Of a stretch of 64,000 nucleotides of DNA, positions 34,801 to 40,800 are shown one piece after another (position 1 is the stretch's first letter; each line of letters opens with the position of its first letter). The position numbers were made by a program. This DNA comes from Bdellovibrionales bacterium (lineage in GTDB: Bacteria > Bdellovibrionota > Bdellovibrionia > Bdellovibrionales > UBA1609). The stretch lies in assembly GCA_965219095.1 (NCBI GenBank), contig CBDCMT010000001.1, positions 96,001-160,000 on the forward strand. The letters are read 5' to 3'.

Positions 34801-37800
34801 AAAATATCTTTAAAGTACCCCAAGTTTTTAAGATCTTCTAAACCCCTTAAGAAAAAAGGTGATAAAAGTATCTTTTGAAACTCTTCTAAAATTCTTTCTT
34901 TAGAGATCTGAGATAAAGACACTTTGTACAAAGCTCTATATGTAGTCTCTTCAATAAAAAAATTAAGTTGTGTTACAAAACGAATGGTTCTTAGAGCTCT
35001 TAATTGATCTTCTTTAAAACGTTTTAAAGGTTTTCCTACGGTTTTGATTGTTTTTAGCTTTAAATCTTTTAAACCTTCCACTAAATCAATCACTTGTTTC
35101 GAAAAAGGATCATAAAATAAAGCGTTGATAGTAAAATCTCTTCTCAAAGCATCTTGTTTATAAGTAGCAGGTGTTATACTATCGGGATGTCTTCCATCCG
35201 AATAAATACCATCTTTACGAAAAGTAGCAATATCCACTTCACAAATCTCACTTCTGATTTTCACAACACCAAAGCTTTCTCCTACTTTATGAGAATCAGG
35301 AAAAAGAAAACTTAGTTCTTGGAAAGATGCGTCAGTAGCTAAATCAAAGTCCTTAAAAGCTCTTTTCAACAGTCCATCCCTTACACTCCCTCCTATTAAA
35401 TAAACCTGAAAGCCTTTATCTTTAATTTTTTCACAAATGTTTTTGACAAAAGGCCAGTTTGTGTGATTCTCAATAAAGTCCATGAGTACATCTATTATTC
35501 CATTAATTGAAGATTTAAGTAAAGACTTAAACTTTACTAGCTTCGGCACTACTATCTTAAAAAAGCCTTTATCCTTTCATTACTATCAACAATGGCTCCG
35601 TGAAGGCCTTCACCATGACATGGATTACTTAAAAGATCATGCACCATTAAAAGAAAATCCTAAGAAACTTCTTTCAAGAGCTCACTCAGCCCTTGTCTTT
35701 ACTCAAAACTATGTCCCCCACCCCTATTCTGAAGGATACCCTCTAAAAGCTTTGAAAGTAGCTCTTTACGCTAAAGGAAAAGACTATCACCATTGGTTTA
35801 AAAAAAAGTTATCCCTTCTTTGTGAAAGACTTAAAAGCAAGATGCCCTCAGAAGAGTTTTTAGCTTTTACAGACTCAAGTCCTGTTTTGGAAAAAGATCT
35901 GGCACAACAAGCAGGATTGGGCTGGTTTGGGAAAAACACATGTCTTATCCATCCTAAAAAGGGCAGTTTGTTTTTTATAGGAGAGATTTATACAAGCCTT
36001 AAATTAGAGCCTGTTTTAAAAGAAATCTCTTATCACTGTGGAACATGTACACGCTGTATTGATGCCTGCCCCACTCAAGCTTTTATTGAACCTTTTAAGC
36101 TAGATGCTGGAAAATGTATCTCTTATTTGACCATTGAATCAAAAAATCTTCTTCCTAAAGAAGATTTGAGAGTTCAAATAGGAGATTGGTTTTTTGGCTG
36201 TGATCTTTGCCAAACAGTCTGTCCTTGGAATCAAAAGATCTTTACACAAAGTTTAAAGAAAGTGAAAAAAGCAAAATATAAAGATCTTATTGATGACCTC
36301 AGATTCATTCTTCAAAGCTCTCATAAAAAACTTCAGAAAACTTTTTCTCAAACAGCCCTTAGTAGAGCAAGGCCTAAGGCTTTGAAACGAAATGCTCTTA
36401 TTGTGACAGGCAATTTAAAGCTCCATGAATTACGAAAGGATGTTCTTAATCTCTCTTCTATAAAGGACTTTTCTGAACTAGCTCGTTGGACTTTAAAACA
36501 AATGGATTCTCTTTAAAGTTTATGTTAAAAAAAAATATGTTTGAGAGAATAAAAGAAGATTTGTTTTTTAAAAAACAAAATGACTTAAGGCTAGGAGAAT
36601 GGGTTTCATCTATAGAGTCCTTAGATCAGCTTTCTAAGGGGGGAGTTCTTATAGCAGGTTACCCTGATGATGAAGGCATTAAACTGAATGGGGGTCGTTT
36701 AGGAGCTTCTCAAGCCCCTTGTGAAATAAGACGTATATTTTACCGCATGACAGCATACCCTCAACTCCCCCCTCTCTATGATAGAGGAGATTTAAAAGTC
36801 AAAAAACTTGCTTTGAAAACACGCCATCAAGAAGTAAGGACTTTAGTCTTTGAAGCTCTAGAAAAAAACTTATTTGTGATGGGCTTAGGAGGAGGGCATG
36901 ACTATGCTTATGGAGACGGGGCTGGTTTTTTAAATTATCATCATCAAAAAAAACCTCTTATCATTAACGTGGACGCTCACTTAGATGTAAGAGACTTAAC
37001 TCAAGGTCTTTCAAGTGGTACACCTTTTTATCGTTTGCTTAGTGATTTTTCAAACTTTGACCTCATTGAGCTAGGCATTCAAAGGTTTTGCAATACACCA
37101 GAACATATAAAGTGGTGTGAGAGAAAAAACGTTTCCATCTCTTATCTTGATGACTATGAATTTTCTTGGACTTGTTTTTCGAAAAGATTTCATCACCTTC
37201 TTAAAGAGAAAAGGCCAACCTATTTAAGCATCGACATTGATGCCTTTTCTTCAAGTTATGCCATGGGTGCAAGCCAATCTTGGCCCTCAGGACTGACTCC
37301 TAGGGAGTTTTTCCCTCTTTATAAGAAATTATTGAAGTACTTAGAAGTTCAGGTATTAGGGATTTATGAGGTCTCCCCTCCCCTAGACCACGATCATTTA
37401 ACCTGTAAACTAACTTCAGAATTGATGTACAGCTTTTTAGAATCAAAAAAAAAGCCTCTTTCTTTTTAAAAGAGATTTGCTTTCATTTGTCTTTTTTGGC
37501 ATACTTTCCCTATGTTCACACCTTTAAGAACACTTCCTGAAAAATCCTTTTTCACCCATGAAGATATCGCTGTGATCTTTGGCGAGGTGTTTGACCGAGG
37601 TTATGTGAATGGTATTATTGAGGAATTAAAATTTAATAATATTCCTATAATTTATTCCACAGTAGGTCGAAGGGATCAAAATAAAAAAATAAGAGCTTTA
37701 ACAGAAGAAGAGTTAGCTGAAAGATACAAACCCCTCATCAATGTACCTCTAGAGACAGGCTTTGATTTGTTTCAGCCTGAAGGAGGTGAGAACTTCATTG

Positions 37801-40800
37801 ATCAACTTAAAAACATAGACCTTAACTCATGGAAAGACTTTAAAATCCCTATTGAAACCATTGAAGATATTTCTAGACAAGCTACTTTAGAATTTAAGTC
37901 AAGACTCAAAATGTATTTTGAGCAATTAAAACCTCATTTAAAAAATAAAAGAAAGATTTTATTCATCCATACTATGGCTGGAGGCATTCCTCGTGCAAAA
38001 ATTATTCTTGTTCTTATGAACCGTGTTTTTAAAGCCTCAGGAGATCGTTTTATCTCTTCGAAAGATTTTTGGAATGGGAGCGATCTAGGTCGTCTATGTT
38101 TGAGAAACTTTCAAGATGTGACAGCAGAAAGTTTTTTCCATCTTATAGAACATACAGAAGATTTAAGAAACAACCATGAAGTTAGTTACATTGCTTACGG
38201 TTATCATGGCAATGAAGTTTTAATAGGAGATTCATATAAATGGCAATCTTATACCCCTTACCTTCAAGGTTTTGCTAAACTTCGTTTAGAGGAGATAAGT
38301 TTAAAGGCTTACAAGAAAGGACTCCAGGTTTGTGTTTTTAATGTTCCTGAGATCTTAACTAATTCTACAACCGTTTTTTCAGGAGTGGAACTTGCTCTTT
38401 TTAATCTCATTGGCTCCCTAGAAAAAAAAGCTTCTCTGCACCCTTGGACAAGAGCCTTTCAAAAATTATCTAAAAACTTTTTAAAGGATGAATTTGAGCT
38501 TGAAAATATATTTCAAGAAGCTCAAAAATACTTTACACATCCAAATTTTGAAAATTGGAATAATTTTAATTCATGGCCTGATCATTCTCGTAAAGAACAA
38601 CTGAATTTGATGCAACTTCACTCCAAAAACATCCTCAATATGCATAAAAGCAAAAAAGAGCTTGTAGCGGCTCTTTTAAGCCAGCTTGTATTTAGAGTGA
38701 CTGGTCATATTATTTACAGATATGCTGACAAAATCAAAAACCCTGTTTGTTGGATCGGCCATGAAATGATCACTGAAAACTTGGCTCAGGTGGAGGGACT
38801 CGAACCCCCGACCCGGTGATTAACAGTCACCTGCTCTACCACTAAGCTACACCTGAAAGAATAGTAATAGCTTATCAGCCTTTTCAAAAAAACACAAACT
38901 TTTTAAAGTCGCTAAACCCTGTAGAATTTGAAAAATGGAGCAAATAAGGTAATTATCTCTTAAAAAAGTTAACTATTTTGAATCACACCAACCAACATAA
39001 TGGATCCGGACTTATTTTCGTTTCATATACCTTTCTTCTGGTGATTGTAACAAAAAACTCAGAATCCGGTAACCCAATTAAAAGAGTCAATAAGCTATAT
39101 CTACTGATTATACGTAAGTCGGTTATATGACCGCCCTTGACTTCTACTGAGGAGGATATTTCTTAGATTTTAAAGGAGAAGTTTTTATTGATCTTGTTGT
39201 AAAACGGTGTTGTAAGACGTTTTCCTAAGGCCTTCCCCGTTACAAAAGTATTAGAGAAGTTCTTAAAAGAATAATTCTTAGTTTTTTTTCGTAATTTTGA
39301 TTTTCTTTGTGCTTTATTCTTTAAGAACAAAGCTCACTTGTATACTCAAAAGGCGTTTTAATAGGCATCTTATCGAGGGAGTTTCCCACAACCATTAAAA
39401 TATAGTCCTTAGGATCTAATTCCACCTTCTTACAACTTTCCACAATACTGTAAAGTACTGATGCTGTTTCAGCTCCTCTCTGAGTCCTTGACCCATGAAA
39501 GTTCTTTCTTCCCATCACAGAATGTCGAATCGTTCTTTCTGCTTCATTGTTTGTCATAGGAATTTTCTCATTTTCTAAGAATAAATTTAAGCCATCCCAG
39601 TGATTAAAGCTATAATCAATAGCCTTTTTTAACCCACTCTCAGGACGAGCTTCTCCATAAAGTTTATAATACAGATCTTGCAGAGAAAGAACTAAATCCT
39701 TTGATTCTGTTTGTCTTAAACTTTTGAGCTCTTCATAAGTTTTTGCCTTTGATTCAACTTTAAAAATCTTCCCCATAAGCTTTAATACTTTTCCACACTC
39801 CTCAGGGTAATTCTGTTCTATGTCAATAAACTTTCTTATCACTGAGACCAACAAAAAGCAAGATCAATTCCCTTTTCATCCTTAAAGTGTGTTTTATAAC
39901 TAACGTATCCATCTGTTAAAATAGGCCCCTTATAAGAGCCTAAGAGTTTTTTAATAGAACAGGCTGAACGGCTCTCACTAAAGTAATAAAAACTTCCTCC
40001 CTGATGACTTATAACAAACATGTAGCCGTCCTTTTGATGTGAATTATTAATAGGCCATGGAGTTTCATCAATATGAATCGTTCTGTCTAGTTTAAGAAGT
40101 TCCTCTTTGTTATTTTGTAAGTTGTTATTTAGAGCCAATTACAGAAATTAATTCAACGGTAAATCAAAAAGACAGGTCACTGGTTTAAGCCATGATAGTG
40201 ACCTGAAGTACTTGCAGAAGGAGGTGAGCTTCTCAAAACAAATTCTAAACCCTTTAAAGGAGAGTTTCATCTTGAGCATTCTCGCCATCGTAGCCCACAA
40301 AACTTTGTCATCAATCTTTTAGGTACTCTGTAACTCGGTTGTCTGACAGCCCTTGACTCCTATAAGGAGGGGGGTTCTTAAAAAATAAAGCACAAAGAAA
40401 ATCACAATACGAAAAAAAAACGTAACTGCTCACCTACATTGTTCAGTTATCCCTAACTTTAGACCTGTTTTAAGATAAAAGTCTTGCTCTTACAGATTTT
40501 CTTTTAAATACTCTTTTCAAATGACAATAAATAAGACCTCCATCAGAAATGAGATTGAAAATATAAGAAGTGACTTTGATAAGCTTGCAAAGAAAGGTTC
40601 TATGCCTACTGAGATTTCTGTGATTGTTGAATCTCTCTTTAAGGTTGTGAACATTCTGATTGTTGTGTTTTTAGAAAAACAGGTTCGAAAAAATTCCAGC
40701 AACAGCGGTCTTCCTCCTTCGCAAGATTTTAGTCGTCAAGGGAATCGTAATAAGAAAGCTAGTGGGAGTCAAAAAAAGGGCTCTAGACTTGATAACAGTA

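What a model noticed while it worked through the whole genome (the two positions that open the first line are those of the whole stretch)
37512..38819. FabMG, known only from a soil clone, is the sole enoyl-ACP reductase here and in most Bdellovibrionales
The genome has full FAS II but no FabI, FabK or FabV; its enoyl-ACP reductase is FabMG (g00926, plus a truncated copy g00880) with the catalytic Yx5K intact. Across the order FabMG and FabI exclude each other, so Bdellovibrionales are natural owners of this triclosan-resistant enzyme, which would explain their reported triclosan tolerance.
Evidence so far: PDB 6KI9/6KIA hit E 7e-98 over residues 4-430, Y-x5-K aligned. FabMG in 49 of 61 order genomes; the 12 without include 11 with FabI, and FabI was found in 17 of 121, none of the FabMG bearers of call 105. 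No FabK here; no FabV in 121. relatives.tsv: 307 of 383 order genomes, none elsewhere in the phylum, 1449 in all bacteria. Review PMC9260719 (passages, call 96) gives FabMG only as a soil-metagenome clone and does not name Bdellovibrio; PMC7427700 (passages, call 103) found Bdellovibrionaceae favoured by triclosan with cause unknown.
(Added by a program. Inside this text positions count along the whole contig: contig position 96,001 is position 1 of the stretch shown here. "Call 12" and the like, gene names such as g00115 and contig names such as C1 are that model's own, and its searches are not shown. The text may have been shortened before it was handed on; [...] marks where a part breaks off. 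The agent that wrote the report below was given it as the finding of a first reader that could run no searches.)

Follow-up and report, generated by a model that had tools for sequence, protein, structure and literature searches.

The report
Bdellovibrio's missing fatty-acid reductase candidate
This gene encodes a known but little-studied type of fatty-acid-building enzyme (FabMG) that appears to have replaced the usual one in most predatory Bdellovibrionales, which makes it the obvious candidate for a step whose gene a published model of Bdellovibrio calls unknown; its link to triclosan tolerance is unproven.

Summary
The ORF at 37512-38819 (+, 435 aa) is a FabMG: Pfam PF22046 E 9e-150, TM 0.94-0.95 to PDB 6KI9/6KIA, catalytic Y250-x5-K256. 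This genome has FAS II and no FabI, FabK or FabV. FabMG is in 175 of 201 order genomes. FabI is in 16, none of them FabMG bearers. New support: FabMG is missing together with FabF and FabD in two genera (7 of 7 genomes), and is the only candidate in three small single-contig genomes. The iCH457 model of B. bacteriovorus HD100 says its enoyl-ACP reductase gene is unknown; HD100 encodes FabMG (CAE80205.1).

Corrections: 'known only from a soil clone' is false. Khan 2016 (Table S18) lists 23 organisms, one a Bdellovibrio, and RefSeq already names Bdellovibrio proteins FabMG. The exclusion reflects one or two replacement events; FabMG and FabI coexist in 4 of 4 Geobacteraceae. 137 of 175 bearers also carry an untested FabK-like protein, so 'sole' is not shown for most. 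Published Tn-seq does not list the gene as essential, though that test is inconclusive. The triclosan link rests on 3 of 12 OTUs.

Verdict: new member of a known family, with a testable pathway-hole assignment.

The parts
37512..38819 (+). fabMG, 435-aa enoyl-ACP reductase of the FabMG family
   Evidence: ORF; Pfam PF22046 E 9.2e-150; PDB 6KI9/6KIA E 6.6e-98; AlphaFold model pLDDT 94.8, TM 0.94-0.95 to 6KI9/6KIA
38259..38279 (+). catalytic Y250-x5-K256 motif
   Evidence: aligns to Y260/K266 of the solved FabMG; both residues kept in 282 of 282 aligned homologues; codons read
37581..37604 (+). conserved N-terminal G-E-x-F-x-x-G-Y loop (residues 24-31); a role in NADH binding is inferred from its place in the Rossmann fold; absent from the truncated second copy
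   Evidence: G24, E25 and Y31 kept in 282 of 282, G30 in 280 of 282
38782..38856 (-). tRNA-Asn(GTT) overlapping the last 38 nt of fabMG on the opposite strand
   Evidence: ARAGORN; sequence
35482..37469 (+). upstream same-strand neighbours queG (35482-36516) and a hutG-like arginase-family gene (36486-37469); context only, not fatty-acid genes

Best explanation
[quoted passage not shown] It reduces trans-2-enoyl-ACP to acyl-ACP with NADH, using Tyr250 as proton donor and Lys256 to hold the cofactor, as in other SDR-type reductases. Shown here: family, fold, catalytic residues, distribution. Inferred from the 42%-like solved soil enzyme: activity and cofactor. FabMG displaced an ancestral FabI once or twice within Bdellovibrionales, has been kept wherever FAS II was kept, and was lost where FAS II was lost. 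It is therefore the best candidate for the enoyl-ACP reductase left as an orphan reaction in the B. bacteriovorus HD100 model. Any triclosan tolerance would be a by-product, not the reason the gene is there.
For: Family and fold. Y and K invariant in 282 of 282. FabMG 175 of 201 against FabI 16 of 201 with no overlap. FabI-type matches in 76 of 131 sampled phylum genomes outside the order and FabMG in 0 of 225, so FabI looks ancestral. In 33 hand-picked genomes, FabF and FabD are absent from 7 of 7 own-family genomes that have neither reductase and present in 23 of 23 FabMG bearers. G135, G139 and G175 (single contigs, 1.3-1.6 Mb) hold one classical SDR, beside fabF/fabD, and no FabI, FabK-like or FabV match. 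PMC7529429 states that the gene for this activity is unknown in Bdellovibrio (passages). HD100 and 109J encode FabMG (CAE80205.1; WP_038449656.1). Three complete named Bdellovibrio genomes have no FabI. In the 109J Tn-seq two FabK-like genes look dispensable: mean W 1.65 and 1.89, low noise.
Against: No activity was measured for any Bdellovibrionales protein. The 109J gene (EP01_RS08045, assigned by synteny and accession spacing) is not in the putative-essential list and has fitness values of 0.54-1.46, whereas ACP, FabG and FabD are listed and FabF is 'ND'. Calibration weakens this: 12 of 22 tRNA-ligase rows and gyrA also carry values, and the gene's noise (SD/mean 0.61) lies in their range of 0.47-1.12 rather than that of its four neighbours, 0.16-0.28. 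137 of 175 bearers have a FabK/NMO-like protein whose best PDB match is T. maritima FabK. This genome has an orphan Yx3K SDR, and FabG-like and 7-alpha-HSDH-like reductases exist. FabMG is not beside fab genes in the loci read. The window protein departs from 9 of 96 highly conserved columns; the median of 269 homologues is 1. The exclusion rests on few independent events. HD100's own genome was not searched for FabI by name.
Confidence: 0.78

Rival explanations
1. Shared duty: in most of the order FabMG works beside a conserved FabK-like flavoprotein that also reduces enoyl-ACP, so FabMG is the sole reductase only in reduced genomes such as this one.
For: FabK/NMO-like protein in 152 of 201 genomes; best PDB match T. 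maritima FabK, E 8e-50; often next to a DUF4442 gene; neither FabMG nor the two FabK-like rows seen are on the 109J essential list, as redundancy would predict.
Against: Best score 213 bits against a FabK cut-off of 453. It occurs in FabI and FabMG genomes alike, and is absent from 38 of 175 FabMG bearers that include genomes shown to keep FAS II. FabMG's Tn-seq noise suggests few insertions.
Confidence: 0.25
2. FabMG makes Bdellovibrionales intrinsically triclosan-tolerant, and this explains the enrichment of Bdellovibrionaceae in exposed biofilms. It can hold together with the best explanation.
For: The soil-clone FabMG raised the E. coli MIC from 0.9 to 20 ug/ml. Bdellovibrionaceae were 25% positive and 0% negative of 12 OTUs; the other 47 OTUs of the old order work out to 2 positive and 5 negative, Fisher p 0.052 for positives. 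FabMG is the one large non-backbone gene on a 6.4-kb mobilizable plasmid from activated sludge.
Against: Three OTUs; over-representation only at 316 nM; order level not significant. The OTUs cannot be tied to FabMG-bearing genomes. Predators respond to prey shifts and take up prey lipids. The Bdellovibrionales proteins are only about 40-48% like the tested enzyme.
Confidence: 0.3
3. In Bdellovibrionales FabMG serves a side pathway (special lipids or prey-lipid remodelling), and the true FAS II reductase is an unrecognised protein such as the orphan SDR.
For: Outside the order FabMG coexists with FabI (4 of 4 Geobacteraceae) and sits on 137 plasmids, mostly rhizobial. Other phylum families lack FabI, FabV and FabMG alike (f16 0 of 14, f18 2 of 28 with FabI), so unrecognised reductases exist. 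Insertions were recovered in 109J.
Against: G135, G139 and G175 have no second classical SDR; co-loss with FabF and FabD; complementary distribution with FabI.
Confidence: 0.1

Closest known systems
FabMG (AH4-3) from a soil metagenome clone, PDB 6KI9/6KIA, Pfam PF22046
   Same: Same family, length and fold (TM 0.94-0.95, about 40% identity) and the same Y-x5-K pair.
   Different: The tested enzyme comes from a Sideroxydans-like clone (89% to Slit_2509). No Bdellovibrionales member has been assayed in the papers found. Here it stands without FabI.
RefSeq 'enoyl-acyl carrier protein reductase FabMG' of Bdellovibrio spp. (e.g. WP_413568159.1; HD100 CAE80205.1 / WP_011164807.1)
   Same: Orthologues, 40% identical to the window protein, with the same motif.
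   Different: Database names only. The HD100 record is still shown as hypothetical/uncharacterized, and the 2020 model calls the gene unknown.
FabI (SDR, Y-x6-K, about 260 aa, triclosan target)
   Same: Same reaction and Rossmann core; next-best Foldseek matches (TM 0.31-0.37 on the query).
   Different: 10-16% identity, shorter, different motif spacing; not found in the 175 FabMG bearers.
FabV of Vibrio and Pseudomonas
   Same: A large SDR-type reductase that replaces FabI and resists triclosan (review; sole-reductase role in P. aeruginosa partly recalled).
   Different: Y-x8-K motif, different Pfam families, much higher MIC (650 against 20 ug/ml); no match over the cut-off in 201 order genomes.

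Membership tests
FabMG (PF22046) | Profile match over the curated cut-off across the full length | tested here: met
   499.6 bits against 27; profile positions 3-430 of 431
FabMG (PF22046) | Catalytic Y-x5-K (Y260/K266 needed for complementation) | tested here: met
   Y250/K256; kept in 282 of 282
FabMG (PF22046) | About 440-aa Rossmann fold with long added helices | tested here: met
   AlphaFold with 103 sequences, pLDDT 94.8; Foldseek TM 0.94-0.95, rmsd 1.9-2.3 to 6KI9/6KIA chains A/B
FabMG (PF22046) | NADH-dependent enoyl-ACP reductase activity; rescue of fabI(Ts) | not testable with these tools
   Shown only for the soil-clone protein (review passages; Table 1)
FabMG (PF22046) | Triclosan resistance | not testable with these tools
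   MIC 20 ug/ml for the clone; residues responsible not seen, because Kim 2020 is not held
FabI | About 260-aa SDR with Y-x6-K that matches the FabI models | tested here: not met
   No NCBIfam match for the protein; no FabI in the genome
FabV | PF12241 domain, Y-x8-K | tested here: not met
   Only PF22046 matches; none in the genome; the model found a partial FabV-like match in one phylum genome (E 2e-18) and none in the 14 controls
FabK | FMN TIM barrel (PF03060 / TIGR03151) | tested here: not met
   The only hit in the genome is IMP dehydrogenase
Sole essential ENR of B. bacteriovorus | Gene essential for host-independent growth | tested here: inconclusive
   Not in Data Set S3, noisy fitness values in Data Set S2 of PMC6561027; many tRNA ligases and gyrA behave alike

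The most novel reading that the evidence does not exclude
Bdellovibrionales are the long-term home of FabMG. It displaced FabI early in the order, is the one essential enoyl-ACP reductase of B. bacteriovorus, and has been exported from the order to other bacteria: the Bradyrhizobium copies group with this genome's protein (95/92 support; one clade of all order copies is rejected, p-AU 0.007, with the group chosen after a first tree), and all 4 of 201 Bradyrhizobium bearers lack the main FabI. The predators would then be naturally indifferent to FabI inhibitors, which would allow predator-plus-inhibitor treatment of prey, and would be an old reservoir of a triclosan-resistance gene now also found on plasmids.
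Probability: 0.25. Interest if true: 0.68.

Novelty: new member of a known kind. Interest (0 to 1): 0.48.

Why it matters
It names a concrete gene (HD100 CAE80205.1; 109J WP_038449656.1, probably EP01_RS08045) for a reaction that the published B. bacteriovorus model fills without a gene, so one complementation and one deletion would close the gap. It also moves FabMG from a resistance curiosity to a probable housekeeping enzyme of a whole bacterial clade, a case of non-orthologous replacement of FabI, and warns that genome surveys scoring Bdellovibrionales as lacking the last FAS II step are missing it. The family, its structure and its presence in Bdellovibrio are already on record, which limits the surprise.

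Tried and rejected
Kim et al. 2020 (FEBS J, the FabMG paper) is not held. It may already discuss Bdellovibrio or co-occurrence with FabI; the review's Figure 3 legend says its FabMG sequences were taken from it.

Paper searches for a printed link between FabMG and Bdellovibrio: 'FabMG'+'enoyl' gave 2 papers; 'FabMG' as a whole word gave 7, of which 5 are unrelated by title; 'Bdellovibrio bacteriovorus'+'fatty acid synthesis'+'FabI' gave 2; 'Bdellovibrionota'+'fatty acid biosynthesis'+'fabI' gave 1, not opened. The review has no 'Bdellovibrio'. PMC10741038 was seen only as a listing. Subscription journals are not covered.

A single-sequence AlphaFold run failed (pLDDT 36). No RNA holder was listed for the gene. 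The enoyl-ACP rows of the iCH457 reaction table were not located in the supplements, so the orphan status rests on the main text. MDR-type reductases (PF00107): none in the genome. A careful RpoB tree did not finish; only the quick tree is used.

The idea that Bradyrhizobium shows a clean second FabI-for-FabMG swap was weakened: 44 of 201 genomes lack the strong FabI match, only 4 of them have FabMG, and only 11 candidates a genome were scored. The Sphingobium carrying the small plasmid is reported as a chloramphenicol degrader, not a triclosan degrader. Earlier scan findings were not available. No complex prediction was sent.
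Full report
Observation. The ORF at 37512-38819 (+) encodes 435 aa. It matches one Pfam family, PF22046 FabMG (E 9.2e-150), no NCBIfam model, and one PDB sequence, 6KI9/6KIA (E 6.6e-98, residues 4-430). An AlphaFold model built on 103 sequences (pLDDT 94.8) superposes on 6KI9/6KIA with TM 0.94-0.95; FabI structures follow at TM 0.31-0.37. Counting along the alignment, Y250 and K256 pair with Y260 and K266, whose mutation abolished complementation (review PMC9260719, passages). 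Both residues are kept in 282 of 282 aligned homologues. The window protein is divergent: it departs from 9 of 96 highly conserved columns, against a median of 1 among 269 distinct homologues, 15 of which depart as much or more.

This genome. It is 3.11 Mb in 2 contigs and 94% complete. It has a fabH-fabD-fabG-acpP-fabF cluster and a FabA/FabZ-family gene. Only two classical SDRs were found, FabG and an orphan Yx3K protein. A profile of 41 fetched FabI sequences, run without filters over all six frames, finds only these two (79 and 20 bits). A profile of 18 FabK-like sequences finds IMP dehydrogenase and one marginal hit. FabV and MDR-type models find nothing. The 'truncated copy' is a 1.04-kb inverted duplicate (C2:90315-91352, 90.6% identical) of the last 312 codons plus a tRNA-Asn that overlaps the gene's 3' end on the other strand. 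It lacks the first 123 residues, has no stops, and shows 42 silent and 33 replacement codon changes. One contig of a public run bridges its junction; that run may share the genome's source. It is unlikely to be an active reductase (inference).

The order. In 201 genomes at least 90% complete, FabMG is in 175 and FabI in 16 (E <= 1e-45), with no overlap. FabV has no match over the cut-off. The split follows whole families: FabI in f3, f7, f8, f9 and f13, FabMG in the other eight. On a quick RpoB tree of 30 chosen genomes, 15 of 16 FabMG bearers form one branch (SH-aLRT 93) and the f11 genome sits weakly among FabI families. The exclusion is thus one or two events, not 191 independent observations. 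Outside the order FabMG is in 0 of 225 phylum genomes and FabI-type matches are in 76 of 131, so FabI looks ancestral.

Ten order genomes have neither enzyme. Seven (genera g22, g26) also lack FabF and FabD. All 23 FabMG bearers tested, and the three fragmented genomes G029, G040 and G089, keep both (33 hand-picked genomes). Three single-contig genomes of 1.3-1.6 Mb have one classical SDR, next to fabF/fabD, and no FabI, FabK-like or FabV match, yet keep FabMG. This co-retention and co-loss is the best evidence that FabMG is the FAS II reductase. It too rests on one or two losses.

Against 'sole in most of the order'. 152 of 201 genomes carry a FabK/NMO-family protein (best 213 bits, cut-off 453), 137 of them FabMG bearers by subtraction. 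One example has T. maritima FabK as its best PDB match (E 8e-50). Its activity is unknown. Outside the order FabMG coexists with FabI in 4 of 4 Geobacteraceae and lies on 137 plasmids, mostly of Sinorhizobium and Agrobacterium.

What is in print. Khan 2016 (PMC5006077; passages, section 12 and supplement part 5 read) lists homologues in 23 organisms in Table S18: 5 Betaproteobacteria, 9 rhizobia, Ruegeria, Pseudovibrio, 6 Geobacter/Pelobacter, and Bdellovibrio sp. ArHS (WP_041873392, 48%). The same accession came up. RefSeq and UniRef already name many Bdellovibrio proteins FabMG. 'Known only from a soil clone' is therefore wrong, although only the clone's protein was assayed in the papers seen. 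[quoted passage not shown] HD100 and 109J encode FabMG (CAE80205.1 / WP_011164807.1; WP_038449656.1), 40% identical to the window protein with the motif intact. Three complete named Bdellovibrio genomes have FabMG and no FabI; HD100 itself was not searched by name. No paper joining these facts was found, but Kim 2020 could not be read.

A test on published data. In the 109J Tn-seq of Duncan 2019 (PMC6561027; passages, Data Set S3 whole, Data Set S2 in part) I assign FabMG to EP01_RS08045. It lies between a periplasmic-binding protein and an MBL hydrolase, followed by a hypothetical protein and cardiolipin synthase, the order seen in named loci, and the accession spacing agrees; the table does not print the accession. 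The gene is absent from the putative-essential list, which includes ACP, FabG and FabD, and has fitness values of 1.46, 1.09, 0.87 and 0.54. On its face this counts against essentiality. However, 12 of 22 tRNA-ligase rows and gyrA also have values. The gene's noise (mean SD/mean 0.61) falls with the ten single-copy ligases and gyrA (0.47-1.12), not with its four neighbours (0.16-0.28) or the two FabK-like genes seen (0.25, 0.32) (a third FabK-like row was not displayed). About 30 insertions would be expected in a dispensable gene of this length. The result is inconclusive: sparse end insertions or redundancy both fit.

Triclosan. The clone raised the E. coli MIC from 0.9 to 20 ug/ml, far below FabV clones at 650. 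In PMC7427700 (passages), 25% of 12 Bdellovibrionaceae OTUs rose with triclosan (p 0.029), significantly only at 316 nM, while the order as then defined showed no trend (8.5% up, 8.5% down of 59). The family-versus-rest contrast points the predicted way (3 of 12 against 2 of 47, back-calculated; p 0.052), but the OTUs cannot be tied to genomes, and predators track their prey. The link is plausible and unproven.

Origin and spread. In unrooted FabMG trees (45 and 26 chosen rows) the Geobacter, Anaeromyxobacter and alphaproteobacterial plasmid copies form one clade (100/99). Two Bradyrhizobium copies group with the window protein and a relative from its family (95/92). Holding all order copies together is rejected (p-AU 0.007; the group was named after the first tree, and the window protein has an atypical composition). 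This favours at least one transfer out of the order. The direction for the other clade is open, named betaproteobacterial copies were not included, and sampling leans to Bdellovibrionales. In Bradyrhizobium 4 of 201 genomes have FabMG, all among the 44 without the strong FabI match, but 40 others in that set have no FabMG.

Mechanism and verdict. [quoted passage not shown] Family, fold, catalytic residues and distribution are shown; activity, cofactor, essentiality and triclosan insensitivity are inferred. It is a new member of a known family. Its value lies in giving a named, testable gene for a stated gap in a model predator. Interest 0.48.

Noticed in passing
window 38782-38856 (-) and G000:C2:90380-90454 (L002:1425-1499): Both tRNA-Asn genes of the genome lie on the two fabMG copies, antisense to their last codons; the duplicate is inverted, 43 kb away, and 9% diverged. 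No tRNA was found in 138 order loci of limited flank.
   Followed up: partly
L168:3524-4855 (NZ_CP119131.1): A 6.4-kb mobilizable plasmid of Sphingobium sp. WTD-1 from activated sludge carries FabMG with only rep, mobQ, a ParDE pair and three short hypothetical genes: a possible mobile biocide-tolerance cargo.
   Followed up: partly
phylum families f15, f16, f18, f26 (handles): These families mostly lack FabI (0 of 5, 0 of 14, 2 of 28, 0 of 3), FabMG and FabV. Several have 265-290-aa proteins with faint PF12241 hits. They may use FabK or another unrecognised reductase.
   Followed up: no
Bradyrhizobium sample: 44 of 201 genomes lack the strong FabI match (24 none, 20 only a weaker type), and 40 of these have no FabMG; partly a possible search artefact (11 candidates scored a genome).
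   Followed up: partly
G129, G147, G161, G165 (g22); G179, G185, G187 (g26): Two small-genome genera of this family lack FabF, FabD, FabI and FabMG; G147 has no classical SDR at all. They appear to be fatty-acid auxotrophs.
   Followed up: partly
L066-L077, L249: A conserved FabK/NMO-like flavoprotein in 152 of 201 order genomes, in several loci next to a DUF4442 gene; function unknown.
   Followed up: partly
window 29079-32193, 39321-41943, 46194-47182: Dense transposase-like ORFs and fragments flank the locus; one element just downstream has dozens of near-identical copies in the genome, which suggests IS expansion in a 34% GC genome.
   Followed up: no
G000:C2:87000-91000 (L002:92-1300): Next to the truncated copy lies a 402-aa ORF with tandem coiled-coil-like repeats, itself present in several diverged local copies.
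   Followed up: no
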